Source of the DNA: an uncultured Verrucomicrobiae bacterium
GTDB taxonomy: Bacteria > Verrucomicrobiota > Verrucomicrobiia > Limisphaerales > UBA11358
Direction: 5' to 3'
Length of the DNA: 64,000 nucleotides
Assembly (NCBI GenBank): GCA_963789335.1
Contig: CAWBKH010000013.1
Span: 3,174 to 67,173 of the forward strand
Every line of letters begins with the position of its first letter. Position 1 is the stretch's first letter. Below are positions 7,801-44,778 of this stretch, piece by piece. The position numbers were made by a program, and so were the translations under genes. The notes below the pieces were generated by a model. The model saw only the letters and a list, made by a program, of their open reading frames with translations, had not been told where the DNA came from and did no database searches.

Positions 7801-7911
7801 TGGCGTCGGCTGGTCCAGCAGACGGCAAAGGTCTGTGAAATGTTCCTGATAGGCCGAAGTTTCTTTGCCCTGATAGCGCGCCCATTTTCGTTTGAATTCG
7901 GCGGCGGTCAT
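4831..7911 (-). CDS. MmeI/YeeA-like type IIL (IIG) restriction-modification enzyme (adenine MTase + nuclease + TRD)
   Basis: Motif I DPACGSGNFL, motif IV NPPFLG, GAHYTS, N-terminal FAWEYK nuclease-like segment, C-terminal TLTNLYNERPAWLDLAHKKLDAAVAAAYGW. Start placed at MTAAEF (7911); the ORF track extends to 8046. Confidence 0.9.
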   Translation of the reverse strand: MTAAEFKRKWARYQGKETSAYQEHFTDLCRLLDQPTPNEADPSGADFFCYQKRVVKDAELFELHETPDASEPTERGFADVWKKGCFAWEYKGKKKNLDEAYKQLLRYRESLLNPPLLVVCDFDRYIVRTNFNGTVQETHEFTNADIDRPENLRILRALFSEPEFLKPQRTTAEVTEKLATQIANVALSLQKRESVELADARNRKEVNVAQRKNLRIARFLNRIVFCLFAEDTGLLPADLFTEILKASLHDPAHFVETTEDLFKKMQKGGRFGNQVIRHFNGHLFDDFTVFELTEEEIKDLAEAAEADWQFIQPSIMGTLFERALDESQRAQLGAHYTSEADIRTLVEPVLMQPFRRKWSQIKGELAAAYAKGKGDAAQRERLVKFQRKLAAVSVLDPACGSGNFLYVSLQLLLDLEKEVVTFATQLGFRLAPQVSVQQLRAIEINPYAYELAQVSVQIGYLQWRRDNGFDNDRTPVLQVLDGFQNEDALLVPHFHSKAKTLKEAQAGEHTGDDSLKFYTEREWPKADVIVSNPPFLGDKVMRRELGDYYVDQLRDSYGERIPGQSDLCCYWFEKAREQIEKKKCERAGLLATQGIRGGANREVLKRIKDTGDIFFAESDREWILAGATVHVSMVGFDSGTEVLRTLDGTSIPSIESNLSRHTALPEAKPLQENAETCFLGVMKAGAFDLDEEMVVKMLAAPNPHGIPNSEVLRPRFTARDILQRTGGGWIIDFGCDTEEVDAAKFQGPFGYVESNVKPERLQNRRKSLAQWWWIHGEPRPGLRNALMEKVRYIITPEVSKHRIFVWLDAVNLADHQTRVFTKADDFSFGVLQSRIHEVWALAQGTQLREKESGFRYTPTTCFETFPFPRPTPTQETAIAATAKELNELRERWLNPPEWSVENILEFPGSTGGPWHRYLDAKTVDAKTGVGTVRYPRLEPRDADCAAKLKKRTLTNLYNERPAWLDLAHKKLDAAVAAAYGWPADSTDEAILEKLLTLNLERAAEEAKAAKVNMPKAQRAKHAEEMI

Positions 7912-8098
7912 GCCAGTGGATTGTGGCGCGATTTTTTCCCGGCGCGGCATGGCAGGGACGGTATCAAAAAGAATGACACCGGGCAATAAGGGTGAATTTC
8001 GCTTGCCGATACCGCCCCGCCCGGCCATACAAAACAAACATGGCAACTCGAAAAGGTATGCGCGCCCGCCCGGCTAGTTTCCGCATCCGCTAAATACC

Positions 8099-10795: not shown

Positions 10796-11887
10796 TTAGA
10801 ATGTCACCTTCAACGCCTCGCGCTGGCTGTGTTCGTCGCGCAAATGGCCGTAGGTCTTCATGCACAGCGCGCCGCCATCCTGATGCCCAAGCCAGCGGGA
10901 AACCGTCGGAATGTCCACGCCAGCCTCAATGCAGCGCGTCGCAAACAGATGCCGCAAATCATGGTGCGTGATGCGTTTGACGCCGGCCAGCTTCGCCGCC
11001 CGGTCTATGGACTTCTGGCACTCGAAAACCTGCATTACCGTTTTGTCCGCCGATTCTTTGGGCCGTTCCGCCCGCATTTTTTCCAACAGTTGCCGCAAGC
11101 TGCTATTCAGCGGAATCCAACGATCTTTGCCGTTCTTGGTGATGCGGGTGTGCAGCAATCCCTTTTCAAAATCCACATCGCCCCAAAAAACGTGCCGTGC
11201 TTCGTCTATCCGCAAACCGGAAAACGCCAGAAAACGAAACAGATTCGCGCAATCCTTTGCCTGACCCGCCCCCGATGTTTCAACATGCGTTGCCATTTCC
11301 TGAAATTGCGCCTGGGAGGGCAGGTGCAATTCCTTGGGCTTGACCGCGTGCCGGTCCACGAACCGGGCCGGATTGTCCACCCGGTAGCCGTGTTTAACCG
11401 CGATGTCGAAAATCCGGCGCACCACGCCCAACGCGCCGTTGAAGCGCGTGGGGCTGTAATCCTTGCCGTGGCGCGCCGCCCAATCGTTGCAATCCTTCTG
11501 GCTGATTTTGGCGATGTCGGTCGAATACAATTTGGGCCACGACTTTTCCAGTGCCTTGAGCACTTCCTGTTTGTAAAGTTTGGTGCGCGGCTTGTTGTTG
11601 TGGTCGTCCTGGATTTCCTTTTTGAACATTTCAATAATGACTTCGCCTTTGACCGACTGGCCTTTGTTGAGGGCCAGCCGCCGGTGATCGTGGAGAAAAT
11701 CGGAGAGCTTGAGCTTGGCCACGGTCAGGACGTGCGTTTCGAGGGAGCGGCGAATTAACTTGCCATTGACGCGGACGCGCCCAAAATATGTGCCGCTGGG
11801 TTTGTAGCGGAGCAGGTTTGGATACGGCGTCTTGACCCAATCCACATCTGCATTGCTCTTGGTTTGTAATCGTGATGTCGTTTTCAT
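10796..11887 (-). CDS. Tyrosine recombinase / phage integrase
   Basis: Catalytic motifs FSGLRIDE (R), ITKNGK (K), HDLRHLFAT (HxxR), LGH and KTYGH (Y); N-terminal arm-binding-like GTYFGRVRVNGKLIRRSL. Confidence 0.95.
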   Translation of the reverse strand: MKTTSRLQTKSNADVDWVKTPYPNLLRYKPSGTYFGRVRVNGKLIRRSLETHVLTVAKLKLSDFLHDHRRLALNKGQSVKGEVIIEMFKKEIQDDHNNKPRTKLYKQEVLKALEKSWPKLYSTDIAKISQKDCNDWAARHGKDYSPTRFNGALGVVRRIFDIAVKHGYRVDNPARFVDRHAVKPKELHLPSQAQFQEMATHVETSGAGQAKDCANLFRFLAFSGLRIDEARHVFWGDVDFEKGLLHTRITKNGKDRWIPLNSSLRQLLEKMRAERPKESADKTVMQVFECQKSIDRAAKLAGVKRITHHDLRHLFATRCIEAGVDIPTVSRWLGHQDGGALCMKTYGHLRDEHSQREALKVTF

Positions 11888-11983
11888 GGCTGGAAAGAAC
11901 ATACCATATACAAATCAAGTATGCAACCGCGAAAAATCTCATTGAGAATAACAGCATAGAATGCTTTATTATCAATGTGTTTA

Positions 11984-12058
11984 GCCAATGTAGCTCAGCG
12001 GTAGAGCAACGGTTTCGTAAACCGTCGGTCGCCGGTTCAATCCCGGCCATTGGCTCCA
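11984..12058 (+). tRNA. tRNA-Thr (anticodon CGT)
   Basis: Acceptor GCCAATG/CATTGGC, anticodon arm ACGGT-TTCGTAA-ACCGT, T arm GCCGG-TTCAATC-CCGGC, encoded CCA. Confidence 0.95.
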
Positions 12059-12725: not shown

Positions 12726-12968
12726 ATGAATACCTCCCTCGTGAAATCAGTGCCGCAGGGCGATTTTGCGGAAGTCAGTGCGTTAATGAAGGGCTGGGAA
12801 AACAAATTTCAATCGCTGGTCAGCCAAAAGCAGCCGATCAAGTATGACATGTACCCATTGCCAAACATTCCCCGGGAATTAAAAACCTGGCTCGAGCAGC
12901 AGGGCTATTATGACTTGGTTTTGGAAAACGATCGATGGCAGCACTTTTTGGTTCCAAATTCAAATTGA
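12726..12968 (+). CDS. 80-aa hypothetical protein, copy 1
   Basis: 61/80 identical to 29632..29874; conservation of both copies supports coding. Confidence 0.7.
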   Translation: MNTSLVKSVPQGDFAEVSALMKGWENKFQSLVSQKQPIKYDMYPLPNIPRELKTWLEQQGYYDLVLENDRWQHFLVPNSN

Positions 12969-25843: not shown

Positions 25844-26192
25844 CGCATCAGCGCCCGCGGATTTCTGTTTTGCCGCCCTCCGCCCTCCGCCCTCCGTCTT
25901 CTGCCCCTTTCTCAAACCTCAGCTCCTTGCCTCGCTGTAGTGAACGAAGGCGGGTCAACCAACAACCTTCAACCAGCTCGCTATTGACGCGCGCGCCGCT
26001 CCGGCCCACTCTCGTAGTCATGGCGGGTCAGAAGAAACCGTTGGCTCACGAAGAATCCATCCTGGAGATGGCCATCATACGGATCGCGTCGTCAAGGATG
26101 GCGGTTTTGCCGAACCGCAAAGAGATTTTTTGGAATTCCACGCCACCAACGTGTTCTTGAAAAGAGAAATTAGTGGATGAACCGACCAGACC

Positions 26193-27028
26193 TTGAGTTT
26201 TAACCCACCACTTTCAAATGCAGAGGTTGAAGCTGCTTTCCGCAGCAGCTTCACCAAAATCGCATCCATAGCTAGAGGAACTGGCGGTCAGGGTGTTGTG
26301 TTTAAGGCCGAATCGAAACAGCAAGACAACGTGCCATCGCAAACAGTTGCCCTGAAGATTTACTATCCAGGATCGCTGGTGGAAAGAACACACAGAGAAG
26401 TCCAGGCGCTTGCCAGATTGAAATGTGACCACATCGTAAAACTCCACGCCGCCGGCCACACCAATTTACGTGGACAAAATTGCATGTTTGTAGCCACTGA
26501 ATTCATTGAGGGAGAGGTTTTATCTGCTGTGCTCTCTCGCGGTCATCTGCCCACGGGTCAGGTAGCTCGGATTGGCCGCGAAATTGCATTGGCCATTGCA
26601 GCCTTATGGGTTGAGCGCTTGGTGCATCGAGATATTAAGCCGAATAACATTATGTTTGCTCACAATGGTCGTGCGGTGCTGATCGATCTTGGAGTTGCGC
26701 GCCACCTATCGCTGGGTGCGCTCACAACTCTTGGTAAAACTTGGGGGACTGATGGCTATATGTCACCAGAGCAAGCAAACGCGCTCCGGCAATTGTCATG
26801 TAAGTCTGATATTTTCTCCCTGGTGTCGTGCTTCAAGAGCTGTTGCTCGGCATCCATCCAACGGGCAACAATCAATTGGCATTCGCCGGAGGTGGGGTTA
26901 AATGTGCTGCCTTGAAGTTCGGGATGCCAATTCCATTTGAGCTTCTATTGAATTCAATGCTTGTGCTTAATCCACAGAACCGCCCAAATCCGCTTCATGT
27001 CGCCGATTGTTTCCTAAAATACATATAA
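26193..27028 (+). CDS. Hanks-type Ser/Thr protein kinase with an apparent 1-nt frameshift at about 26822
   Basis: GGQGVVF, VALK, HRDIKPNN, LIDLG, GTDGYMSPEQ and SDIFSL motifs. Adding one G at 26822 restores ...SLGVVLQELLLG... and joins the 26828..27028 ORF. Confidence 0.85.
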
Positions 27029-27038
27029 GCAAACGAAT

Positions 27039-28358
27039 ATGAATAACGCATTCTACGCACCCGCGCGTTACAAAATGGCCATCCCTGGCAATGTTCAGGG
27101 AATCTCTGGTGGTCTGATTTTCCCAGCAGGTGTTCCGTCGCCGACCTTAATTCGGCGGGGCCGAAAGGATTTGAGTAAAAAATACCCATATCTCACGCAA
27201 CGACTATTGGATCCACAACTCTATCTTGCGGAGCTTCCTGCCGCAACGTGTCGGAAGGCGTGTGTAAATTTAGCTAGTTACGGCTGGTTTCTAACAGAAG
27301 GAATCAAGCCGTTCGACAGCTCAAAACAAGATCAAACAGAATGGAGACAAGAAGCATTGGGAAAGATTCATCGTGCTTGGAAGGGAACAATTCCGACCGA
27401 TAAGCCGCGCATCCGAACGGCGATTCTTAAATCCGTCCTTTTTCAACAGAACATCGATTGCGAAGCAATTATTCTCCCATCTCCTCTTACCGCCGAGTTG
27501 TCGAGCGACTATACAGTTGAACTCGGCTGGCTTGATAGCGGGTTGGAAGTTGCCGAAACGATTGCGCCTGGCATGGATCGGATTGCATCCGTTGCGTTAT
27601 CAGACACTTCCTTGCGCGGATTAGACCCATGGAAAAACGACTTACTGACGGTAATCATTGATCAGATTACTGCTCGCACACCGGAGGGGGTTTATATCGT
27701 GATCGAACAATCGAATGAACACGGTTACTACTGCACTCATCCTAACACGGTTGGTTCTTTATTACGGTTGATTCATCAGTTTAGAGAAGCGGGATTAAAA
27801 CGAATCATTGTTGGCCCAATCGGATTGGCCGGTCTCCTTGCAACAGCAGTTGGCGCGGATGTTTGGTCCGCTGGCTGGTATCGGGGGGAACGCAGGGTGA
27901 TGCTTGCTGACTTTACAGATCAAATGGGGATGGCGGTTCCGACCTACTACACCCATGGTCTGGCTGGAGAAATTCATCTGGAAGGAGACCTCGACCGTTT
28001 GGTCCAAAGAGGTTTTCTCAAGCGCCTGGAAGACGAAACCCAAGCTAGTAACGGCTTAATAACAGCTTTGAGGGCTCGTCGCAGTGTCGGCACAGTGCCT
28101 GAATGGCGGCATGGCCAATCTAACGTCGAGGCTGCAAGGGAACATTTTTACACTGTTGCTGTTCGCGAGACCGCAAAATTAAATGGGCAACCGAAAACAG
28201 CTTGCTTACGTTACGCAAACGAGTGGCTGAAAGGAGCCGAGCAACTCGCTTCTGATTTATACAGCGTTGGGGGATTTAATCCTCGGACAGAACTTAACCA
28301 CCAGGCCGCTTGGCGTCAGGCTTTTGGTCAATTCTTAGAAGTGGTCGGGGCTTCGTAA
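27039..28358 (+). CDS. Hypothetical protein, predicted alpha/beta (TIM) barrel, reminiscent of P4 Beta/sce7725-type proteins
   Basis: 439 aa starting 10 bp after the kinase; alternating strand/helix pattern (LLDPQLY, IILPSP, GVYIVIE, IIVGPIG, GADVWSAGW). The family call is tentative. Confidence 0.6.
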   Translation: MNNAFYAPARYKMAIPGNVQGISGGLIFPAGVPSPTLIRRGRKDLSKKYPYLTQRLLDPQLYLAELPAATCRKACVNLASYGWFLTEGIKPFDSSKQDQTEWRQEALGKIHRAWKGTIPTDKPRIRTAILKSVLFQQNIDCEAIILPSPLTAELSSDYTVELGWLDSGLEVAETIAPGMDRIASVALSDTSLRGLDPWKNDLLTVIIDQITARTPEGVYIVIEQSNEHGYYCTHPNTVGSLLRLIHQFREAGLKRIIVGPIGLAGLLATAVGADVWSAGWYRGERRVMLADFTDQMGMAVPTYYTHGLAGEIHLEGDLDRLVQRGFLKRLEDETQASNGLITALRARRSVGTVPEWRHGQSNVEAAREHFYTVAVRETAKLNGQPKTACLRYANEWLKGAEQLASDLYSVGGFNPRTELNHQAAWRQAFGQFLEVVGAS

Positions 28359-29062
28359 CCATTTGAAGCAGGACGTGGCGTTTTGTGCAACGCCGCAACT
28401 TTTCGAATTAGCCATATTCGTTCGGCGGTAATCGGTTTCACGTTCTTTGTTGCCAGAATAAGCTCCGTTTTTTTTGCGCTTACGGAAATCAATCCAACTC
28501 GTTCTCGACGGCACGCGTTTTGGAGTCTCGGATTGCGGTCAACCACGGTCTTAGGTAGGGCAACATACGAGTGATTTGAAAATCGGTGATATTCCTTAGC
28601 TTGTCTGATTGCATCTTTCCACCTTCGTAGTTTCGCTTCAACCGAAACGATTTTGATTTTTGATGGGAATGCGTCTCTCCGCACGACCAGAGCCCCGGCA
28701 CGATTGACTCGTAGCAATTTGTCGCGGACCAAGCGAAGTACAGCACGTTCTAAACTGGTTTCCCTCGCATATAAAAGGCGCGCCAGTGTTCTTCGCCCCA
28801 ATGGCCCGCGCTTGAGAAGTGTCGCCAGTATTTCACACTCAAATAACGACGGAACGCGGTTGGAATGTTTCGGAGGCCTTGCATTAGCACGAGTAGCAAT
28901 CAAAACAAGATCCGGTACAATCATTCCAACCGGTAGCTTCATAAATCGAACTACCTTTTTCAGCGTCTTTGAAACAAAATGCGCAGAAATTTGTTTTTCA
29001 ACAATCCACAGGAGATGGTCTTCCAGGGCAAATTCAATTTGGCCAGTCGTCTTGCGATTCAT
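28328..29062 (-). CDS. PD-(D/E)XK nuclease-like protein with an inserted winged-helix domain
   Basis: E...GMIVPDLVLI, then a wHTH (ILATLLKRGPLGRRTLARLL...LERAVLRLVRDKLL), then IVSVEAKLRRWKDAIRQAKEY...SYVALP. Start set at MNRKTT (29062). Confidence 0.65.
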   Translation of the reverse strand: MNRKTTGQIEFALEDHLLWIVEKQISAHFVSKTLKKVVRFMKLPVGMIVPDLVLIATRANARPPKHSNRVPSLFECEILATLLKRGPLGRRTLARLLYARETSLERAVLRLVRDKLLRVNRAGALVVRRDAFPSKIKIVSVEAKLRRWKDAIRQAKEYHRFSNHSYVALPKTVVDRNPRLQNACRRERVGLISVSAKKTELILATKNVKPITAERIWLIRKVAALHKTPRPASNGYEAPTTSKN

Positions 29063-29260
29063 CTGCGTAGAGGTTTGCACATTTTCGCACACATGCGAAG
29101 AGAGAAAATTCGGGGGCAGTCCCGCGCATTGACACATTCCCCCCTGTCCGGTTGGACGACGAGGGCGCAGAGATTTGAGAGTTTTATTTGGGCGGCCTGT
29201 ATTGCCGATGTTTTGATGAATCCGATTACATGAAGGGGCCAGTCCGGCATTTTGAGCCAG

Positions 29261-29982
29261 CTTCGTTCTTGCCGGGCGGCGAATCGTGAAAATTCGTGAA
29301 ATCCGTGTCAGCAAGATGCTTTGTGTTCCAGTTCCTCGGTTGTGTGCTTCAATTTGGTTGCTTTGAGTGTTTGGCGTTCCCTTCAAGTGATTGGCGGGTT
29401 TGGCCTCCGGGCGGGAAGAAAAACGGCGCTGGCGGATGCTGTACGGCTGAACGCTGCCAGCGCCGTTAACTATTCGACCTGGGCTTGAATCGAACGCGAA
29501 AGAGCAAATCACATTGGTACCATTCGGTCAAAGACGGGACCGCAACATGACTGTGACGTTTGGGAGACGTTCGGCGATTAACCGCGTTTTGACTGGACTT
29601 TTAAGCCGGCTTTGTGCCTAATCCAATCTGTATGAATATCTCGCTCGTGAAATCCGCGCCGCAAGGCGATTTCATTGAAGTCAGTGCTCTATCCCGTGGG
29701 TGGGAAACCAAATTTCAAACGCTGGTCAGTCAAAAAAGGGCCATCAAGTACGACATGTACCCGATGCCAGGCATCCCAATGGAATTAATGAGCCGGCTTC
29801 ACCAACAAGGTTATCAGGACCTGATTTTAGAGAATGACCGGTGGCAGCACTTCTTGGTTCCAAAGTCAAATTGAGTCGCCGGCAGTTGAGCGACCTGAAT
29901 GGGCAAGCGCCTGTCATGCCATAGCCCCTCCACTCAAGGTCAGTTCCTCATTTTAAACCATCTTCGCTCTTGCCGGGCGGCG
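29261..29982 (+). repeat. 21-bp direct repeats (29261..29281 and 29962..29982) flanking the 80-aa ORF copy 2
   Basis: CTTCG(T/C)TCTTGCCGGGCGGCG with one mismatch. Confidence 0.55.
29632..29874 (+). CDS. 80-aa hypothetical protein, copy 2
   Basis: 76% identical to 12726..12968. Confidence 0.7.
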   Translation: MNISLVKSAPQGDFIEVSALSRGWETKFQTLVSQKRAIKYDMYPMPGIPMELMSRLHQQGYQDLILENDRWQHFLVPKSN

Positions 29983-30167
29983 GCAGAAGGAAGGCTGAAG
30001 GCTAAAGCTAAAGGCTAAAACTCCCATCGCGGAAATCCGGTTTATGGAGCAGCTTCGCGAGATGGGCCAGCGGGTGCAGATGTTTTTGGGATTGGCCGAT
30101 ATGGTGTCTCAGTTGCCCGGCTTCCCACCGGCGTCGCACGTTGACGGGGTAGCGAGAAAAATCGAAG

Positions 30168-31464: not shown

Positions 31465-34400
31465 TCAACTGGCTTTGGGCAGAATGACCGTGACCCGTCC
31501 GACACTCCGAACCAGCGCCGCCTTCTTTTTCTTTTTCTTTTCGTCATCGTTTCCGGTGCTGTTGCTGGCGACCTGTTGCTGGTTTTCGGCGCTGGTCTGC
31601 CCGGCGGCACTTTGGCTGGCGGCGGTGGCGGAGGAGGAAGTGGCCAGGGTGCCCGCGCCGCCGTTGACGGAAGTGCTGAGCACGTTGGCGGTGGCTGAAA
31701 GGCTCCCGCCGCCAGAGGTGTTCACGCCGCCAATGGCAACGATCGTCCCGGAAATCGTGCCGCCACCGGAAAAAGTGGCCGTGCCGCCGGAAAGAACGGT
31801 CCCGGCGAAACTTTGGGCCGCATTGATGTCGGCGTTCCGTTGGGAAATGATCAGGCCCGTGATGGTGCCGCTGGCCGTAGCATTTACGTTCACCCCAATC
31901 ACGCCGGATGTGCCCAGAATAATATTGCCTTCACCAAGGTCCGGCGAACCGCTCGCCGTCAGCGTTATGGTGGGGCTGTCGGGACCGGAGGCGGACAGGG
32001 TCCCGCCGAACGCTTCCTGCGATATTCCACCCAGATTGGCAATAATGTTTCCCTGGAGCGCGGTCACCGTGATATTGCCCGGCAGACGGGCGGCGCCGGG
32101 AACCTGAGACGCGTTCGCCAGCGTGTCCGCCACAATGCCATTCGCGGGAACATACTCTACCGGCTCGGGGCCGGAATAAGCCGGAGAATAGAAATTGACC
32201 GGGATAGCCACCGTGCCGCCGCTGCCGGCGTTGATATCGCCCGTCAGTGACGTGATGCTGACATCGCCGCCGTTCAAGGTGGCGATGCGGGAACTGTCAA
32301 TATTGATGGTGCCCAGAGCGGTCACATTCACGTCGCCGCCGCCCGTGGTGTAAATGCCCAAGCCGAGGTTGCTGGCATTCATGATTTGAGCCTCGAAGGG
32401 CAACAAATCTTGGGAGCCTAAATCCATTGAAATTCCCTGGCTGTTCGCCCCGTCGCCGGTCACATTGACATCTCCACCGCCGAGCGCCGCAATGGTGGAG
32501 CTGGGCATGTTCAAACTCGGCACGATTATGCCATTTACCGTTTGATCATTATCCAGCGTGACCACGTTGATGGTCGCGCCTCCAACAGACAGGATTCCTT
32601 TCGAGTTGCCCAGCGAGATGGAACCGGCGTTGATGTCAAATTCGCCCGGGCCGCCAACGGTATAACCGCCCTTGACAAACCCCAGCGGCGGTGCTCCCTG
32701 ACTGCCTTGATGACTGGCTTGATAGAGAGAGGCGAGTTGAGCGTAATCGGTGCTGGGAGTCAAGGTGACCGTATCGGTCACAAAATGGCCGGAGGAATCC
32801 AGGAGCGGATAGCCATTGGGACCGTAACGCAACACGGTCAGAGACGGCTGCTCCAAGTCCGTCAACAGGTCCAAGGACAAGGGGCCAATGGCGGTCAGCG
32901 TTTTTGTGGCTGAGTTGTAAGACAGTTCGGTCGTGAGTTCACTGCCAATACTTGGGAACATGCCGGCATTGTTCAGGGCGTATGAGGCCCATTGCGAGGG
33001 ATTCGAGGGATCGGCGCTTAAGGGCGACAGGGTGGCTAGCTGTGCTGCATTCACCGCCCCCAGCAGGATTTGAGACCAGGAATTAACCGTACCGGGAGCC
33101 AGGTCCTGCAACGGCAGGCTGGATAAACCTTGATCCAAGGTTATGAAGTTAAATGAGCCCGGGTTGTAAATCTGGCCACCGACAGTGAGGGAGGTGACGT
33201 CGCTGGCGTTCAAATTATTCCCGTAAAAAGTGCAGCCGATCATGTCGCCTGCCACGCTTATCTGGGCCGGTTTGGACACCTGCAAGCTGATGTTTTCCAT
33301 ATTTCCGCCGATGTTAATCACCACCGGATTGTCATTAACCGCCGAGCTGCTGGCGGACAAGGTCAAGGAGGCGTCGCTGCCGTCGTCATTTCCGCTGCTA
33401 AAATCTCCCCGGTCGTTGATTTGGAGATTCCCGTCGGGCGAAGCAAACAAGGTGATATCGGAGTTCGGCAAGGTGACGTCACTTTCAGCGGCGAGCGGCG
33501 TTTGCAAGACGATTCCACCGGGACCGGCGTTGATATTCAGTATCGGGGGCATAATCAAGGGAATGGCGTCGTTTGGCCGCGGGATTTGATAACCGGTCAA
33601 ATAAACTCCGTTGCCGGCCGTCAGCGTGACTGAAGCTTGCGGGCCATAGTCAAAGTAATGAGTCCCGGCTGTGGCCACATAAGTGTATGGATTGATAGTA
33701 TTATTGAAAACGCCATTGGGATTCCGCACTTCCTGCAAATAGATGTCTCCCTGCGCATTCAGGCTCCAACTGCCTGTGGCCAGACTCAATGCCACATTTT
33801 GATTGTCACCAGATTGACCGACGCCGATGTTCTGGCCAGCGTTGATGATGCCCGTGCCGTTCATCACCACATAGTTTCCATAGACACTGCCGCCGGCGTT
33901 AATCGTCACATTCCCCGCTTCGGGTCCAAAGGCCCCTGTCCCGGGATCGTTCGCCGCGACCATCGTGGTGGGGAAACTGACTACGTCGCCGCCGGCGTTG
34001 ATGGTCACGTTCCCGCCGGCGGCGGTGCTGATGCCGCCGAGATTCGATTGATTGTAATTAATTGTCTCGAGCGCACTGCTGGAGACTTGAAATGGAGTAT
34101 AGTAGGGGGCATTCCACCGAAAATTAAACCCGGAGGTATTGTCCCCCGTGTTGACATTCCCATATTCCGTTGTCACGTCAATATTGCCGCCGCCGATGGT
34201 TCGGATGGCGCCGCTGTTGACGATGACTTCGTTGGCGGCATACAGATTGATGGCGTTATGATTGGCGTCGCCGTTCGCAGCTTGAATGTAAGCAGTGCCA
34301 TTCAGATAAATCCCGTCGCTGCCGGAAGCTGGTTGGGAACTTGAAGGAAGCGTGCCGGCAGTCAAATTCACAGTCCAATTGTTTCCGACTTGAATTCCTG

Positions 34401-36282
34401 AACCGTCATCCAAGGTAATGTCGTTGCCCGCAAACAAGCTCAAGGTGCCGGGGGTGCTCGCGTCTGGAGCCCACTGCGAACTCAGCTCGATGTTGTAAAG
34501 ACAAATTTGCGAATAGGGCAATAAATCACTTACATTCAAGTTGGGGCTTGAAGAGGAGGTGGACGTGGCGCTGGAGGAAAGTGTCAGACCGAAGGGATTG
34601 ACGAACAGACGGGAGAATTGTGCGGCGGCCGTGCCATCAATCGTGGAGTTGACCGTGTTTGCAGTGGTTCCATTGCCAAAAATCTCAATAAAACCGTTCG
34701 GTCCGCCATTATTTCCCGAAACGGAAATCTTGGAGCCTGTCGGGTCTGAAAACGTTCCTGCCGAATTCAAGACCACAAACCCACCGGGACTCGTTGTGGT
34801 CGAATCGCCAGCGGCGGAAATGACGGAACTGGCGCCCAAATTCAGGCTGCCGCTGCTGCCACTCGCGTAAATTTCAATGGCTCCATTCGCGTTGCCGATT
34901 GAATCGGCTCGGAGAACTCCGTTCTGATTCACCGTTGTCGCGCTCATGGCAATCCGCCCGGCGTCCGCTTCAATTCCCGCGCCGGGGTCCACCGTGATGG
35001 TGTTTCCAGCCAGTAGTGACAGCGCGCCGATGATGCCGCTCTTTGGGGTCAAATTCCATGGCGAACTCAGTTCGATGCTATTGGCCGCCTGAAGATTGAT
35101 TTGCGACAACCCGGCGGACAAGGAATTGATGTTGAGAGCGAGTTGGCCCGCTACGGGACTGCCGTCGGCATTCAGTGTTATATCCGCCGTGTCAATGGAA
35201 AGGCTGGCGTCCGCATAGCCGGCACCGGCCAAGCCGTTGATGCTGGATTGAAAGGCGCTCATCTGGGGCGCGGAAATCGTCACTTGTCCACCATTGCCGC
35301 CCTGCGTGCCCCCGGCGACATTGATGACTGAGCCGTTTTGATCGGAAAAGCTATTGCCGGATTGAATCGTCACCGAGCCGCCGGGGCTGGTGCCTGTCGT
35401 GTCTCCATTGGCCGAGATGACGGAGCTGGCGCCCAGATTGACCGAGTCGCTCCCGACCAGTTCGATGGTTCCGTTGACGTTTTGGGCGGAGTTGGCCTGG
35501 ATCAATCCCCCTTGATTGACGATTTGGGCCGCCTGTAGAATGACGCTGCCGGCATCGGCAACCAATTTGCCTTCATTGTCCACCAAGCCTTGAGGCAGGG
35601 TGACTTGCGCGCTTAATCCGCGCCCGTCCGGGGACGTGGAAACTAGGACCGTTTGACCGGCGTAAAGACCGATGTTGCCGCCCGGCGCGGCAATCGTCCC
35701 ATTGTTCTCAACGTCATTGGCGATGAGAAAAGCCGAACCGCCGCCGGCAATGTTAATCTGGCCGTAGTTGATGATTTTGGCGGTGGGCGGCGGCGCATTA
35801 AAAGACCAGGGTCCGCCGCTGGAAAGGTCGAACGCAGGCGTGGAAGCCGTGGTCATGACCAAGCCATGAGCGGAAATGGCCGCCGAGCCGCCAACGGTGA
35901 AGCCGTTTGGATTTTGCAGCACCAAATAGCCATTGGCGCTGAGATTCCCGTTGATACTGGAGGCGCTCGGGTTGTTGGGGTCGTTGATGTAGTTCCAAGT
36001 GACCGAGGAGGACGAAGGTTGGTTAAAGACCGTGGCTTCACCAGCGCTGATATTGAAACTTTGCCAGTTGATAAAAGCGCTGGCGGAAGTTTGATTTATA
36101 GTCAATTGCGAACCTGATGTGCCGATGGTAGCCGTGCCTTGGGCAACAACGCCGCCGGTCGGATTGGCGTGGAGGTGAAGAGAGTTCCCTCCCCAAACCA
36201 GCAGAACAATGCCAGTCCCGACCAACCTGCAATAATGAAAGAAAACCTTGTTCACGGTAACACGCCTATCATCCGCCAGCAT
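31465..36282 (-). CDS. Filamentous-haemagglutinin-like TpsA exoprotein (about 1600 aa)
   Basis: Signal peptide, then a TPS domain (ANPTGG...INWQSFNI...NPNG); G/S/T/N-rich beta-helix repeats; C-terminal K6 tract and GRVTVILP. Start uncertain (36282 or 36255). Confidence 0.9.
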   Translation of the reverse strand: MLADDRRVTVNKVFFHYCRLVGTGIVLLVWGGNSLHLHANPTGGVVAQGTATIGTSGSQLTINQTSASAFINWQSFNISAGEATVFNQPSSSSVTWNYINDPNNPSASSINGNLSANGYLVLQNPNGFTVGGSAAISAHGLVMTTASTPAFDLSSGGPWSFNAPPPTAKIINYGQINIAGGGSAFLIANDVENNGTIAAPGGNIGLYAGQTVLVSTSPDGRGLSAQVTLPQGLVDNEGKLVADAGSVILQAAQIVNQGGLIQANSAQNVNGTIELVGSDSVNLGASSVISANGDTTGTSPGGSVTIQSGNSFSDQNGSVINVAGGTQGGNGGQVTISAPQMSAFQSSINGLAGAGYADASLSIDTADITLNADGSPVAGQLALNINSLSAGLSQINLQAANSIELSSPWNLTPKSGIIGALSLLAGNTITVDPGAGIEADAGRIAMSATTVNQNGVLRADSIGNANGAIEIYASGSSGSLNLGASSVISAAGDSTTTSPGGFVVLNSAGTFSDPTGSKISVSGNNGGPNGFIEIFGNGTTANTVNSTIDGTAAAQFSRLFVNPFGLTLSSSATSTSSSSPNLNVSDLLPYSQICLYNIELSSQWAPDASTPGTLSLFAGNDITLDDGSGIQVGNNWTVNLTAGTLPSSSQPASGSDGIYLNGTAYIQAANGDANHNAINLYAANEVIVNSGAIRTIGGGNIDVTTEYGNVNTGDNTSGFNFRWNAPYYTPFQVSSSALETINYNQSNLGGISTAAGGNVTINAGGDVVSFPTTMVAANDPGTGAFGPEAGNVTINAGGSVYGNYVVMNGTGIINAGQNIGVGQSGDNQNVALSLATGSWSLNAQGDIYLQEVRNPNGVFNNTINPYTYVATAGTHYFDYGPQASVTLTAGNGVYLTGYQIPRPNDAIPLIMPPILNINAGPGGIVLQTPLAAESDVTLPNSDITLFASPDGNLQINDRGDFSSGNDDGSDASLTLSASSSAVNDNPVVINIGGNMENISLQVSKPAQISVAGDMIGCTFYGNNLNASDVTSLTVGGQIYNPGSFNFITLDQGLSSLPLQDLAPGTVNSWSQILLGAVNAAQLATLSPLSADPSNPSQWASYALNNAGMFPSIGSELTTELSYNSATKTLTAIGPLSLDLLTDLEQPSLTVLRYGPNGYPLLDSSGHFVTDTVTLTPSTDYAQLASLYQASHQGSQGAPPLGFVKGGYTVGGPGEFDINAGSISLGNSKGILSVGGATINVVTLDNDQTVNGIIVPSLNMPSSTIAALGGGDVNVTGDGANSQGISMDLGSQDLLPFEAQIMNASNLGLGIYTTGGGDVNVTALGTINIDSSRIATLNGGDVSITSLTGDINAGSGGTVAIPVNFYSPAYSGPEPVEYVPANGIVADTLANASQVPGAARLPGNITVTALQGNIIANLGGISQEAFGGTLSASGPDSPTITLTASGSPDLGEGNIILGTSGVIGVNVNATASGTITGLIISQRNADINAAQSFAGTVLSGGTATFSGGGTISGTIVAIGGVNTSGGGSLSATANVLSTSVNGGAGTLATSSSATAASQSAAGQTSAENQQQVASNSTGNDDEKKKKKKAALVRSVGRVTVILPKAS

Positions 36283-36315
36283 AACGCCATTGCTGCTGGA
36301 ATAAATTCGTTTTTT

Positions 36316-36332
36316 GTAACATTCAGGTGACA
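36316..36332 (-). promoter_or_regulatory. Pho-box-like direct repeat directly upstream of tpsA
   Basis: Gene sense TGTCAC-ctgaa-TGTTAC, between the tpsB stop and the tpsA start. Confidence 0.6.
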
Positions 36333-36334
36333 AG

Positions 36335-38914
36335 TCAGAACTGCGCCGTCAGCGCAAAATTAAAGAACGGCTGGTATGCCGAAACGGTGCCGGCGCTCAA
36401 AAGCGGCCAGGAGAAGAGAAATTGTGCCTGCCAGTGGGACCCGGTTGCGGCGGAGAATCCAAAACCCGTGCCCCAAAGCGGGGTTCTGGCCTGACGACCC
36501 TGGGGGGGATCCAGCAAATAGACGTCTGCATAATCCATATAGACCGAGCCGCGAATCGTCAGCGGCGCCCCGTCATAGACGGAGCCGACCACATGCGCCG
36601 GCGTTTGCTGTTCAAGGCTGACATGCCAGCCGGTGTCGCCGAAAACCTCGCCTTCGTGATAGCCCCGGACGCTGTTGACGCCACCCGCGCCATATTGTTC
36701 GGTACTGACCAACGGCTCGCTGGACCATTGGCCGTCCGCACGGATGGACGTCGTCCAATTGGTGTAAAAATCAATTTCCTGCGAGAAGCTGGGCCGGAGG
36801 ACCACCCAATGGCCGGTGGATTGAGCCGAGCCTGTTATAAATTGGAGACTTTTTTCACCCTCAAGTTCCACGCCTTGGTTGGTAAGCGTAGAGCTGGAAT
36901 ACCAAAGATTGGCGCTCAAGCCCAATCCCCAAGTGGCGGGACCAAACGCATCTTGCAGGCTCGCGCTGTAATTCAGCGATAAAGGCAAATAGTCCAGCGT
37001 CGGGTAGGTCGCCGGTACGGCGGATTCTTCATTCGCCGGGGGGTTTGCAACAATTTGGCCTGAAGAGTTTTTATAATAAGTCAAGTCGGTGAAAATATTG
37101 GTTCCATAGGAGCTCAAAGAATAGACTTTGTAATCAAGTCCCCCGGATAAGGAGGAATGGACACTGCCAATTTCCGGCAACGGTTTGGCCAACTGGAATC
37201 CAACATCTTCGTTAATCGTAACGTCCTGGTGAACTACTTGAGAGGTGAGCTGGCGCACAAAGGGAATGTCAAACAGGGTCTCACTGGAGATGGTTTCAAC
37301 GCCGGTGTCAATGGTGGCGCGGCTGCCGTACACAGTCAGTTCAGGCTGGCCAGAAGGCGGCGGCAGCCGGAATTGGCGCGTGGCTTCGCTGTAGCCGAAA
37401 CTGCCGGGTTTGCTCGCCACCACGTCCTCGATTGGCTCCGGGTTGCCCAGCGGCAGGCGGTAAAATCCACTGTAGTAGGCGACGATAGGCTGGTCGTAAA
37501 AATTCCATTGGCCACCCTGCTTATAGAGCTCCGGTGAGAAACCGTATTGGACGCCGAGCGAATTTTCGGCCTGCCAGAGATTGTCATAGACGGCCGAGCC
37601 GTTCACGCGCAGGTCCGGTGTGCCGGGCGAGTTTTGATTGTTGAATTCCACCTTGGCGTGGAGCGGCAGCCGGTCCTTGATGTTGAGGGTGAGTTCGCTG
37701 GTGTCTGGCACCGGGCCGGGACCGATGACGGGATAAATTTGCCGATCCTGATTGGCGTTGGCCCGGTTCAGTTCGGCATTGAAGATCGGGCCGTTGAGCA
37801 CCATGTTCGTGTGCAGGCTGGGCAACGCGCGCATCACGTTGTTGGAACTGAAGTAGCGGTTGCCAGTAACTTTGATGTCCGCCAGCCGGCCTTCCAACAC
37901 CCGCAATTTCACGGTCGCATTGGTGAGTTTCTGTTGGGGCACGTCCACCGCCACCGTTACATAGCCGCGCTCATGGTACGCCTTCCCCAGTTCGGTCACC
38001 ACCGTCTCAATCCCATCGAAGCTGACATTAGTGCCAAAAGCGCCGTCTATGTTGGTAATCGCCTCACCGATGGCCGCCGACGGCAAAATGGAGTTGCTGT
38101 TGATCAGATATTTTTCCACCTCAAACCGGGGACCGGCATTGGTCGAAACCACATGAACCCGGGTGTCTTTCGCCTCGGCATTCAACTCGGTCATCTTCCG
38201 ATGCAAGGCGGCGATCGCTTGGTACATTTCTGTGGGAGTGGCTGGTTTTGTGGCGAAGTTGATTGCCGGCGGCGCCGCATTGGTGGTGGCGGAGGCAACC
38301 GGCTTTTGGGGAGGAACGGGGGCGGCAGCCGGCGGTTTGGACACAATTTCCACACCGTTGCTCAGACTCAGGTAACGTTCACCAGCCACCACGATTTGTG
38401 GAATGGCTGTTTGAGCAACGTTAAACGTGACGATGCCGTCGGTGATTTGCTCCGGCACGAAGGCGATGCTTATCGCCGGATAACCTTGATTATGGTATTC
38501 CAATTGCAGGTCTGAGGCCGCCTGCACTATTTCCTCCAAACTGAGGTTCGGCCCGGCGTATTTGGAAACGATGGAGGCCACGGTATTCGTAGGAAGTAAT
38601 GGACTGCCTTCTACGACATAGGCCCGGACATTGAAGTGAGGAGCCGAGTTGCTTTCGACCATGACTGTTGCTTTGGCTGCCAGCAAGGAGGCCGGGGAGT
38701 TTTGTGAAGGAACAGATTCGGCTGCGGACGTTTTCAACGTCGTTCCTTGTACCCAGCAGCAAACAAGCAACAGCAGGCAAACGGCGCGGCTGCACTCAAA
38801 CCTCGGGCAAAAAAGGGAAAGCCGATCAGTCATATTTGCATTCGTTCGGCGCATGTGAATGCAACGCGACGGCAGAAGCGTGTTTGGTCGCGCAACATTG
38901 ATTGAACAGCCCAT
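36335..38914 (-). CDS. ShlB/FhaC/HecB-family TpsB outer-membrane transporter with an extra POTRA-like domain
   Basis: POTRA segments (F-x-V-x-x-Y...Y...GY...V-x-VP-x-Q), VRGYHEG motif, C-terminal ALTAQF. Start uncertain. Confidence 0.9.
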   Translation of the reverse strand: MGCSINVARPNTLLPSRCIHMRRTNANMTDRLSLFCPRFECSRAVCLLLLVCCWVQGTTLKTSAAESVPSQNSPASLLAAKATVMVESNSAPHFNVRAYVVEGSPLLPTNTVASIVSKYAGPNLSLEEIVQAASDLQLEYHNQGYPAISIAFVPEQITDGIVTFNVAQTAIPQIVVAGERYLSLSNGVEIVSKPPAAAPVPPQKPVASATTNAAPPAINFATKPATPTEMYQAIAALHRKMTELNAEAKDTRVHVVSTNAGPRFEVEKYLINSNSILPSAAIGEAITNIDGAFGTNVSFDGIETVVTELGKAYHERGYVTVAVDVPQQKLTNATVKLRVLEGRLADIKVTGNRYFSSNNVMRALPSLHTNMVLNGPIFNAELNRANANQDRQIYPVIGPGPVPDTSELTLNIKDRLPLHAKVEFNNQNSPGTPDLRVNGSAVYDNLWQAENSLGVQYGFSPELYKQGGQWNFYDQPIVAYYSGFYRLPLGNPEPIEDVVASKPGSFGYSEATRQFRLPPPSGQPELTVYGSRATIDTGVETISSETLFDIPFVRQLTSQVVHQDVTINEDVGFQLAKPLPEIGSVHSSLSGGLDYKVYSLSSYGTNIFTDLTYYKNSSGQIVANPPANEESAVPATYPTLDYLPLSLNYSASLQDAFGPATWGLGLSANLWYSSSTLTNQGVELEGEKSLQFITGSAQSTGHWVVLRPSFSQEIDFYTNWTTSIRADGQWSSEPLVSTEQYGAGGVNSVRGYHEGEVFGDTGWHVSLEQQTPAHVVGSVYDGAPLTIRGSVYMDYADVYLLDPPQGRQARTPLWGTGFGFSAATGSHWQAQFLFSWPLLSAGTVSAYQPFFNFALTAQF

Positions 38915-44694: not shown

Positions 44695-44755
44695 CCACAC
44701 ATCAGCGATGCCATAGACATTTGATTCTGAGGATCTTGTGCGCTGCGGAGTTGTG

Positions 44756-44778
44756 CAATCCCGGCCATTGGCTCCATC
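44756..44778 (+). repeat. attR: displaced tRNA-Thr(CGT) 3' fragment
   Basis: Identical to 12038..12060; followed by a T-tract. Confidence 0.9.

What the first reader, a model, noticed from the sequence alone, without database searches (positions are those of the whole stretch)
26193..29062. Candidate novel anti-phage system: Ser/Thr kinase + TIM-barrel protein + convergent wHTH/PD-(D/E)XK nuclease
The kinase and a 439-aa unknown alpha/beta protein are 10 bp apart. A nuclease-like gene converges on them with a 31-bp 3' overlap. The block looks more AT-rich than its flanks and sits in an island hotspot. Kinases (Stk2-type), P4 Beta-like TIM barrels and sce7726-like EAK..W..A..QA..Y nucleases each have defence associations, but I do not recognise this trio as a named system. 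Model (inference): a phosphorylation-controlled toxin-antitoxin or abortive-infection switch.
Basis: partly seen in the sequence, partly recalled or inferred. Interest (0 to 1): 0.75.

Follow-up and report, generated by a model that had tools for sequence, protein, structure and literature searches.

The report
Mobile kinase, TIM-barrel, nuclease gene trio
Three genes (a protein kinase, an uncatalogued barrel-shaped enzyme and a DNA-binding nuclease) move together as one unit between unrelated bacteria and look like an undescribed, untested defence-type module, but the copy in this genome has a broken kinase gene.

Summary
The window carries a Hanks-type Ser/Thr kinase (26193-27028, one frameshift), a 439-aa protein 10 bp downstream (27039-28358), and a convergent 244-aa gene (29062-28328) that overlaps it by 31 bp. 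All three lie in a 4-kb low-GC block inside a tRNA-Thr-flanked island.

The trio is a real unit:
- In 34 loci anchored on the 439-aa protein, the kinase is adjacent in 32 of 32 assessable cases and the third gene in 32 of 33.
- In 80 metagenome loci anchored on the third gene, 71 carry the partners. There are three layouts, and in one of them the kinase and barrel are fused into one protein.
- The three proteins co-evolve (r = 0.87-0.93).

Predicted structures show a TIM barrel whose nearest solved fold is tRNA-guanine transglycosylase, and a PD-(D/E)xK nuclease with a winged helix inserted in its core. Neither family matches Pfam, NCBIfam or PADLOC, and I found no paper describing them.

Phage P4's gop-beta-cII Abi locus has the same gene layout, but profile comparisons show no homology, so "Beta-like" and "sce7726-like" fail as memberships.

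Association with defence islands is only occasional. The best reading is an undescribed, phosphorylation-linked conflict or defence cassette, probably inactive here. Function is untested.

The parts
26193..26915 (+). Hanks-type Ser/Thr kinase, N-terminal 240 aa up to the frameshift. It holds the glycine loop, the AxK lysine, HRDIKPNN, DLG and the SPE motif.
   Evidence: Pfam Pkinase 2.7e-27. PADLOC PD-T4-6 model 8.5e-39 and mad6 1.8e-34. Family motifs shown in the 25-sequence alignment.
26828..27028 (+). Remaining C-terminal part of the kinase (subdomains IX-XI) in a different frame. The frame change is at about 26817-26830, so the gene is a pseudogene here.
   Evidence: Three-frame translation. 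The kinase HMM matches both pieces, profile positions 3-214 and 206-275. No indel in contigs of three samples.
27039..28358 (+). 439-aa TIM-barrel protein with a C-terminal helical bundle. It belongs to an uncatalogued family, and its nearest solved fold is tRNA-guanine transglycosylase.
   Evidence: AF2 pLDDT 93.3, pTM 0.93. Foldseek PDB top hit 9hn7_A (QTRT1/2), E 4.6e-5. No Pfam, NCBIfam, PADLOC or PHROG hit. 620 clusters at 50% identity with E<=1e-3.
28328..29062 (-). 244-aa PD-(D/E)xK nuclease with a winged-helix DNA-binding domain inserted between the catalytic Asp (D51) and the E142-x-K144 strand.
   Evidence: Alignment invariants D51, E142, K144, Q154. AF2 pLDDT 89.4. Foldseek top hit 3dnx, and MarR/IdeR/Z-alpha wHTH hits for residues ~70-130. 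Weak MarR/ArsR profile hits.
28328..28358 (.). 31-bp overlap of the convergent 3' ends of gene 2 and gene 3.
   Evidence: ORF coordinates. Similar overlaps or abutting ends occur in other loci.
26050..30000 (.). Low-GC block (0.46-0.53) holding the trio and a small 86-aa ORF. It is taken as the horizontally acquired cassette.
   Evidence: Composition profiles. Gene 2 is absent from 60 related genomes, 36 of them in the same genus.

Best explanation
The three genes form one self-contained, horizontally mobile conflict cassette, most probably an anti-phage or anti-plasmid system of a kind not yet described.

Shown:
- The kinase, barrel and nuclease travel and evolve together.
- The kinase and barrel genes are tightly packed: 10 bp apart here, a few bases apart or overlapping in other loci. 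In one clade they are fused into a single polypeptide.
- All three families keep invariant catalytic-type residues.

Inferred mechanism:
1. The kinase and the TGT-like barrel work as one complex.
2. The barrel binds or chemically acts on a nucleic-acid or nucleotide cue from an invader.
3. This switches on the kinase.
4. Phosphorylation then licenses the wHTH-nuclease to cut DNA and/or shuts down host functions, giving abortive infection.
5. The wHTH may also autoregulate the convergent transcription unit.

In this genome the kinase carries a frameshift in its C-lobe, so the local copy is probably inactive.

The confidence of 0.5 is for the defence or conflict role. That the trio is a conserved functional unit I hold at about 0.95, and the specific order of events at about 0.2.
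For: Co-occurrence:
- Gene-2-anchored loci: kinase adjacent in 32/32 assessable and gene 3 in 32/33 assessable.
- Gene-3-anchored metagenome loci: 71 of 80 carry the partners, 7 are cut by contig ends and 2 are exceptions.
- Three layouts occur, including kinase-barrel fusion ORFs of 687-716 aa. Their C-terminal half matches the gene-2 family at hhalign probability 98.3%, E 2.6e-14.
- Pairwise-identity matrices of the three proteins correlate at r = 0.87-0.93 over 23 intact loci.

Mobility:
- The trio is found in at least seven phyla besides the window's own.
- It is absent from 60 relatives and has lower GC than its flanks.
- It is inserted in unrelated neighbourhoods.

Defence or mobile-element neighbours in some loci: HsdR plus a Schlafen/AlbA_2 protein; a PLD-helicase plus an Eco57I-type methylase; T4SS conjugation genes; DUF4145 plus a transposase.

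Catalytic competence:
- Kinase motifs are conserved.
- Nuclease residues D, ExK and Q are invariant and E14 nearly so.
- The barrel has invariant D58, D189 and D274 and nearly invariant E223 and H306. The strands they sit on come from the AF2 secondary structure.

Precedent: P4 gop-beta-cII has the same layout. It is an Abi, TA-like locus triggered by a phage protein (bioRxiv 10.1101/2023.04.06.535777; PMC9122126). The kinases score 1e-36 to 1e-45 on PADLOC PD-T4-6 and mad6 models.
Against: - No experiment exists for any member.
- Most neighbourhoods are housekeeping or ordinary genes: DnaE2-like polymerase, AcrB, permeases, TGT/SecD and others. Enrichment in defence islands is therefore not demonstrated, and I ran no statistical control.
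- The trio was not found in PLSDB plasmids, INPHARED phages or IMG/VR.
- The kinase similarity to PD-T4-6 and mad6 is at generic kinase-domain level. It is of the same order as the similarity to PknB.
- Which protein senses, which kills, and whether the barrel is an enzyme at all are inferences.
- The local copy has a broken kinase.
Confidence: 0.5

Rival explanations
1. A modification-restriction type system. The TGT-like barrel exchanges or removes a base in host DNA (as DpdA does), the wHTH-nuclease cuts unmodified DNA, and the kinase regulates the balance.
For: - The nearest solved fold is TGT.
- The fusion clade keeps a CxCxxC...H signature after the barrel, as TGTs do.
- Convergent gene pairs are common in RM systems (general knowledge).
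- A gene-3 relative sits directly after a cytosine-5 methyltransferase-like ORF in L137 (read by eye).
- Kinases occur in the modification-linked systems BREX type 2 and MADS (NCBIfam hits).
Against: - There is no profile similarity to TGT (PF01702 finds only the housekeeping tgt in the own genome; hhalign 0.3%).
- The window-type barrel lacks the zinc cysteines.
- No precursor-biosynthesis genes are linked in any context table.
- Loci with a disrupted barrel gene keep an intact nuclease ORF (L028 with an IS insertion, L030). That would be lethal if the barrel were the protective modifier.
Confidence: 0.15
2. A selfish toxin-antitoxin or addiction cassette with no role in defence. One enzyme is toxic, a partner neutralises it, and the module persists by post-segregational killing and horizontal transfer.
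For: - The genes are tightly packed, sometimes overlapping, with a convergent overlap.
- Distribution is patchy and the trio is absent from relatives.
- Copies decay often: the window kinase frameshift, the IS insertion in L028, and fragmented copies in L029-L031.
- The P4 analogue is described as TA-like (10.1101/2023.04.06.535777).
- Beta-related PD-lambda-2C belongs to a TA-like system (10.1101/2022.05.12.491691).
Against: - Copies with any one gene broken still keep the other two as open frames (window; L028, L030). No member therefore looks like an obligatory antidote.
- Three enzymes of 244-439 aa are unlike classical small TA pairs.
- Several fragmented copies come from long-read MAGs where frameshifts may be sequencing errors, so this argument is weak both ways.
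Confidence: 0.15
3. A cellular signalling or DNA-repair module. The MmcB-like nuclease acts in lesion processing and the kinase signals damage.
For: - The best structural match of gene 3 is 3dnx. From memory I place this in the MmcB-like PD-(D/E)xK family; I did not test that.
- In Pyxidicoccus the trio lies beside a DnaE2-like polymerase.
Against: - That adjacency is seen once in more than 30 contexts.
- Absence from all 60 relatives and the cross-phylum patchiness do not fit a housekeeping repair role.
Confidence: 0.05

Closest known systems
P4 gop-beta-cII (DefenseFinder Rst_gop_beta_cll; PADLOC gop/beta/cll)
   Same: The layout is identical: first gene, then a mid-sized partner protein on the same strand, then a convergent PD-(D/E)xK-type protein. 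The catalytic ExK...Q...Y block of gene 3 lines up with P4 cII. It is a small mobile cassette and is described as Abi and TA-like.
   Different: - The first gene is a 133-aa Gop rather than a kinase.
- There is no detectable homology of gene 2 to Beta (hhalign 0.15-0.3%).
- There is no detectable homology of gene 3 to sce7726/cII (0 of 22 on NF033832; hhalign 0.5%).
- P4 cII has no wHTH between the Asp and the ExK strand.
Single-gene Ser/Thr kinase defences (PD-T4-6 of E. coli; Stk2 of staphylococci)
   Same: Both use a Hanks-type kinase as a core component. The PADLOC PD-T4-6 models are the best defence-library hits (1e-36 to 1e-45, covering about 80% of the 292-311-position models).
   Different: - Those systems act as single genes. 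Here the kinase is a bare ~275-aa catalytic domain and always has two partner genes, or is fused to one.
- The scores are at generic kinase-domain level, equal to those for mad6 and close to PknB.
Kinase-containing multi-gene defences (BREX type 2/Pgl PglW; MADS MAD6; KKP of Pf prophages)
   Same: A protein kinase sits inside a multi-gene anti-phage locus, and a phosphorylation-controlled switch is proposed.
   Different: No methyltransferase, PglZ, ATPase or phosphatase partners are linked here (context tables). The partner families are different and uncatalogued.
tRNA-guanine transglycosylase / DpdA family (PF01702)
   Same: It is the best solved structural match of gene 2 (9hn7_A, E 4.6e-5, TM 0.46/0.52). 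The fusion clade has a CxCxxC...H motif after the barrel.
   Different: There is no sequence or profile similarity. The window-type proteins have no zinc cysteines. The catalytic Asp equivalents could not be mapped.

Membership tests
gop-beta-cII (P4 hotspot Abi system) | Middle gene belongs to the Beta family (Pfam PF14350 / PADLOC beta) | tested here: not met
   0 of 41 gene-2 homologues hit PF14350. There is no PADLOC hit. hhalign of the gene-2 family against 36 or 119 Beta proteins gives probability 0.15-0.3%.
gop-beta-cII (P4 hotspot Abi system) | Convergent gene belongs to the sce7726 family (NF033832), as P4 cII does | tested here: not met
   P4 cII hits NF033832 at 2.5e-44. 0 of 22 gene-3 homologues hit it and the own genome has no match. 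hhalign probability is 0.5%, although the motifs co-align.
gop-beta-cII (P4 hotspot Abi system) | First gene is a Gop homologue | tested here: not met
   The first gene is a Pkinase-domain protein. The PADLOC gop model does not hit it.
gop-beta-cII (P4 hotspot Abi system) | Gene order and orientation: X, then partner, then convergent nuclease-fold gene | tested here: met
   P4 annotation compared with window ORFs and the type A loci.
PD-T4-6 | Match to PADLOC PD-T4-6 kinase models | tested here: inconclusive
   E-values are 1e-36 to 1e-45 over ~80% of the shortest models. The scores equal those for mad6 and are similar to PknB, which is kinase-domain level.
PD-T4-6 | Acts as a single-gene system | tested here: not met
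   The kinase is always linked to gene 2 and gene 3, or fused to a gene-2 homologue.
Hanks-type (eukaryotic-like) Ser/Thr kinases | Glycine loop, AxK lysine, alpha-C Glu, HRDxxxxN, D(F/L)G and (A/S)PE motifs | tested here: met
   All motifs are conserved in 25 orthologues. The window copy has them but is frameshifted at subdomain IX.
PD-(D/E)xK nuclease superfamily (gene 3) | alpha-beta-beta-beta-alpha-beta core with E...D...(D/E)xK...Q catalytic residues | tested here: met
   E14 is nearly invariant and D51, E142, K144 and Q154 are invariant. They lie on the expected elements of the AF2 model. The Foldseek top hit is 3dnx.
tRNA-guanine transglycosylase family (PF01702) | Match to the TGT profile | tested here: not met
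   There is no PF01702 hit in 41 members. The own-genome search finds only the housekeeping tgt. hhalign probability is 0.3%.
tRNA-guanine transglycosylase family (PF01702) | TIM barrel followed by a CxCxxC...H zinc site | tested here: inconclusive
   The barrel fold and best TGT structural hit are met. The zinc motif is absent from the window protein and from all 261 stand-alone homologues, but present in all 8 fusion-clade proteins.
BREX type 2 / MADS | Linked methyltransferase, PglZ/ATPase or other Mad components | tested here: not met
   None are present next to the trio in the annotated contexts. In L007 an Eco57I-type methylase is a neighbour but is not conserved with the trio.

The most novel reading that the evidence does not exclude
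The barrel is a zinc-less descendant of the transglycosylase fold. It acts on nucleic-acid bases and is gated by a dedicated minimal Hanks kinase. The 'barrel plus wHTH/PD-(D/E)xK nuclease' pair is the conserved core of a broad superfamily of immune cassettes whose first gene is swappable: a kinase here, an FRG-like protein in L149, and Gop in P4. P4 gop-beta-cII would then be a far-diverged member of that superfamily.
Probability: 0.15. Interest if true: 0.85.

Novelty: new variant of a known kind. Interest (0 to 1): 0.6.

Why it matters
If the trio is a defence system, it adds a widespread module to bacterial immunity: 620 clusters at 50% identity for the barrel protein alone, in at least eight phyla. 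Two of its three protein families are absent from Pfam, NCBIfam and PADLOC. It would link eukaryotic-like kinase signalling to a transglycosylase-like barrel and to a nuclease with a DNA-binding domain built into its catalytic core. That combination has no characterised precedent. The kinase-barrel fusions and the shared layout with P4 gop-beta-cII give concrete, testable hypotheses about who talks to whom. For this particular genome the finding is less important, because the local copy is probably dead.

Tried and rejected
1. P4 Beta homology. I fetched P4, built Beta alignments of 36 and 119 sequences, and ran hhalign against shallow and deep gene-2 profiles. Nothing was found.
2. sce7726 membership. 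I tried an NCBIfam scan of 22 homologues, a search of 301 genomes of the phylum (only 2 true members, too few for a good profile) and hhalign. All were insignificant.
3. TGT homology by profile. Insignificant. Only the fold and the CxCxxC motif of the fusion clade speak for it.
4. PDB sequence search with both profiles. Only weak wHTH hits were found.
5. Target-site duplications, terminators or promoters bounding the 4-kb cassette. Nothing was above chance.
6. Presence on plasmids, phages or IMG/VR contigs. None was found.
7. Literature. No description of this trio was found. DefensePredictor's kinase system DS-6 is HipA-type and is not this one.
8. Homology of the L149 453-aa ORF to gene 2. 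Not detectable.
Defence-island enrichment is therefore only described, not tested.
Full report
**1. What is in the window**

The first ORF (26193-26915) is a Hanks-type protein kinase. Its Pfam Pkinase score is 2.7e-27. It stops after 240 aa because the frame changes at about 26817-26830, inside subdomain IX. The missing C-terminal 66 residues, including the conserved RP of subdomain XI, continue in another frame to 27028. A kinase HMM built from intact orthologues matches both pieces in order, at profile positions 3-214 and 206-275. Logan contigs from three soil samples span the site without any indel. The frameshift therefore exists in the population, although these runs may include the assembly's own source.

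Gene 2 (27039-28358, 439 aa) starts 10 bp after the kinase stop.

Gene 3 is convergent. Alignment with 21 homologues places its start at 29062 (MNRK...), giving 244 aa rather than the 394-aa maximal ORF. Its 3' end overlaps gene 2 by 31 bp.

GC falls to 0.46-0.53 between about 26050 and 30000, against 0.57-0.64 on both sides.

The block lies between tRNA-Thr(CGT) (11984-12058) and a 21-nt copy of that tRNA's 3' end at 44752-44776. An integrase lies at 10796-11902 and an MmeI-family RM enzyme at 4831-8046.

**2. The three genes are one unit**

*Loci anchored on gene 2.* The gene-2 protein has more than 135 close homologues, all labelled hypothetical. A full HMMER profile search found 620 cluster representatives (50% identity) at E<=1e-3 and 207 at E<=1e-30. 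I collected 34 distinct loci anchored on gene 2, from contig look-ups and from species-representative genomes. I scanned them with HMMs for the three proteins.
- The kinase is adjacent in 32 of 32 loci where the flank exists.
- Gene 3 is adjacent in 32 of 33. The exception is L076, where a PT-HINT protein follows gene 2.

*Loci anchored on gene 3.* A metagenome scan gave 80 loci, which I classified:
- 40 have the window's layout, kinase then barrel then convergent nuclease.
- 20 have nuclease, kinase and barrel in one direction.
- 11 have a single 687-716-aa ORF followed by the nuclease gene.
- 7 are cut by contig ends.
- 2 are exceptions.

*The fusion clade.* The C-terminal ~410 aa of those long ORFs, after the kinase domain, align with the gene-2 family at hhalign probability 98.3%, E 2.6e-14, over 275 columns. 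These are natural kinase-barrel fusions. That is the classic indication that two proteins work together physically.

*Co-evolution and mobility.*
- Over 23 intact, non-redundant loci, the pairwise-identity matrices of the three proteins correlate at r = 0.87-0.93.
- The hosts span Planctomycetota, Gemmatimonadota, Myxococcota, Acidobacteriota, Rhodothermales, Chloroflexota and Calditrichota.
- None of 60 relatives of the window's genome has gene 2, including 36 species of the same genus.

The trio is therefore an accessory, horizontally moving cassette.

**3. What the proteins are**

*Kinase.* The family is a bare ~275-aa catalytic domain with every catalytic motif conserved: GxQG, AxK, alpha-C Glu, RIVHRDxxPxN, DLG and SPE. 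It also has a conserved N-terminal peptide, F(D/N)PPL(S/T)xxE(V/I)xxAF.

*Gene 2.* It folds with high confidence (pLDDT 93.3, pTM 0.93) as a TIM barrel with a C-terminal helical bundle.
- The best solved match is the queuine tRNA-ribosyltransferase QTRT1/2 (9hn7_A, E 4.6e-5, TM 0.46/0.52). Other barrels follow at TM 0.25-0.35.
- Viral-library matches are weak.
- Invariant D58, D189 and D274 and nearly invariant E223 and H306 sit at or just after predicted strands in the AF2 secondary structure. This is where barrel enzymes place their active sites.
- All eight fusion-clade proteins carry CxCxxC followed about 17 residues later by His, right after the barrel. This is the arrangement of the TGT zinc site.
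- None of 261 stand-alone homologues has the cysteines, although the His (H369) is invariant.
- Bacterial TGTs from the same phylum show CxCxxC at the equivalent place.
- Profile comparisons with TGT are nevertheless insignificant. The protein is TGT-like in fold only.

*Gene 3.* It folds (pLDDT 89.4) as a PD-(D/E)xK core: helix with E14, strand, strand with D51, strand with E142-x-K144, helix with Q154, strand. A winged helix of about 60 residues is inserted between D51 and E142. Foldseek returns 3dnx across the split core, and MarR/IdeR/Z-alpha winged helices for the insert.

Neither gene 2 nor gene 3, nor their homologues, hits Pfam, NCBIfam, PHROGs or PADLOC-DB v2.

**4. Comparison with P4 gop-beta-cII**

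Its hotspot locus reads gop (133 aa), beta (355 aa, PF14350), then convergent cII (264 aa). cII is annotated as an sce7726-family protein, and I confirmed this (NF033832, 2.5e-44). This is the same order and orientation as the window's trio.

The locus is a validated anti-phage hotspot system (PMC9122126). It is described as a TA-like Abi system triggered by a phage accessory gene (bioRxiv 10.1101/2023.04.06.535777). A Beta relative is required for defence in PD-lambda-2 (bioRxiv 10.1101/2022.05.12.491691).

Homology could not be shown:
- The gene-2 family against the Beta family gives hhalign probability 0.15-0.3%.
- Gene 3 against cII/sce7726 gives 0.5%, although the ExK, Q, Y and following strands co-align.
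- P4 cII lacks the inserted wHTH.

The resemblance is therefore architectural. Membership is not met.

**5. Is it a defence system?**

Evidence for:
- Mobility, patchiness and compactness.
- Two nucleic-acid-type enzymes plus a kinase.
- The P4 parallel.
- Best PADLOC hits of the kinases to PD-T4-6 and mad6.
- Some telling neighbours: HsdR plus a Schlafen/AlbA_2 gene; a PLD-helicase plus a large Eco57I-type methylase; T4SS conjugation genes; DUF4145 plus a transposase; and HsdS beside the variant in L149.

Evidence against:
- Most neighbourhoods are ordinary, and I ran no enrichment statistics.
- The trio is absent from PLSDB, INPHARED and IMG/VR.
- The kinase similarity is generic.

Decay is seen in the window (kinase frameshift) and in L028 (an IS630-like transposase between kinase and barrel). 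Fragmented copies in L029-L031 come partly from long-read MAGs and may be sequencing errors.

In the broken copies the other genes stay open. This argues weakly against any one member being an obligatory antidote, and so weakly against a strict RM or classical TA logic.

**6. Earlier notes of this scan**

Earlier notes describe the same kind of trio in at least seven other genomes, with barrels of 388-399 aa. They also describe FRG-first and PP2C-containing variants. These are unchecked AI notes and I used them as leads only.

Independently, I found one locus (L149) where a gene-3 relative converges on a 453-aa ORF preceded by a 283-aa ORF with a WFRGQ motif. I could not show that the 453-aa protein is related to gene 2.

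**7. Verdict**

The fold assignments are confirmed. The two family assignments (Beta, sce7726) are not met. The trio is a robust, undescribed three-gene cassette whose kinase and barrel act together. A defence or abortive-infection role is the best-supported reading but is untested. The copy in this window is probably inactive.

Noticed in passing
window 29614-29874 and 12726-12968: An 86-aa ORF just beyond gene 3, inside the low-GC block, is 76% identical to an 80-aa ORF 17 kb away in the same island (E 6e-47). It has no Pfam hit and is not linked to the trio in other loci.
   Followed up: partly
window 29237-29281 and 29938-29982: A 45-nt direct repeat (82% identical) brackets the 86-aa ORF. 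It might mark a small separate insertion.
   Followed up: no
L139, L140, L144, L150, L151, L153, L155, L156 (metagenome loci): Natural fusions of the kinase with a gene-2-type barrel (687-716 aa), followed by the nuclease gene. The barrel half carries CxCxxC...H, which is absent from all stand-alone homologues.
   Followed up: yes
L149 4686-7405: A gene-3-like nuclease converges on a 453-aa ORF preceded by a 283-aa ORF with a WFRGQ (FRG-like) motif, next to an HsdS-like gene. The layout is the same but has no kinase. Homology of the 453-aa ORF to gene 2 was not detectable.
   Followed up: partly
L137 135-4771: A gene-3 relative sits directly after a cytosine-5 DNA methyltransferase-like ORF. 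It is followed by a short kinase remnant and an 819-aa ORF that by eye resembles a single-subunit RNA polymerase. This may be a phage contig. None of these by-eye assignments was tested.
   Followed up: no
L076 43-3304: A gene-2 homologue (E 3.5e-67) is followed in the same direction by a 656-aa PT-HINT (polymorphic-toxin type) protein instead of the nuclease. The contig starts at gene 2, so the kinase cannot be assessed.
   Followed up: partly
L028 6822-7951: An IS630-like transposase (two ORFs) is inserted between the kinase and the barrel gene in a complete Candidatus Leptofilum chromosome, and the barrel gene is also split.
   Followed up: partly
L035 32-2040: A true sce7726-family gene (NF033832, 1.4e-39) converges on a 470-aa ORF that matches neither Beta nor gene 2. 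This is another instance of the 'partner then convergent nuclease' layout.
   Followed up: no
P0265 (1193 aa): One database protein joins a gene-2-type region (residues 1-395) to seven PATR autotransporter repeats. It is probably a gene-call or assembly chimera.
   Followed up: no
window 31465-38914: A two-partner secretion pair lies just downstream. It comprises a 1622-aa repeat-rich exoprotein and an 859-aa ShlB/FhaC-type transporter with POTRA domains.
   Followed up: no
kinase N-terminus, window 26193-26250 and orthologues: A conserved peptide F(D/N)PPL(S/T)xxE(V/I)xxAF precedes the glycine loop in most aligned orthologues across phyla. It could be a docking or autophosphorylation segment.
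   Followed up: no
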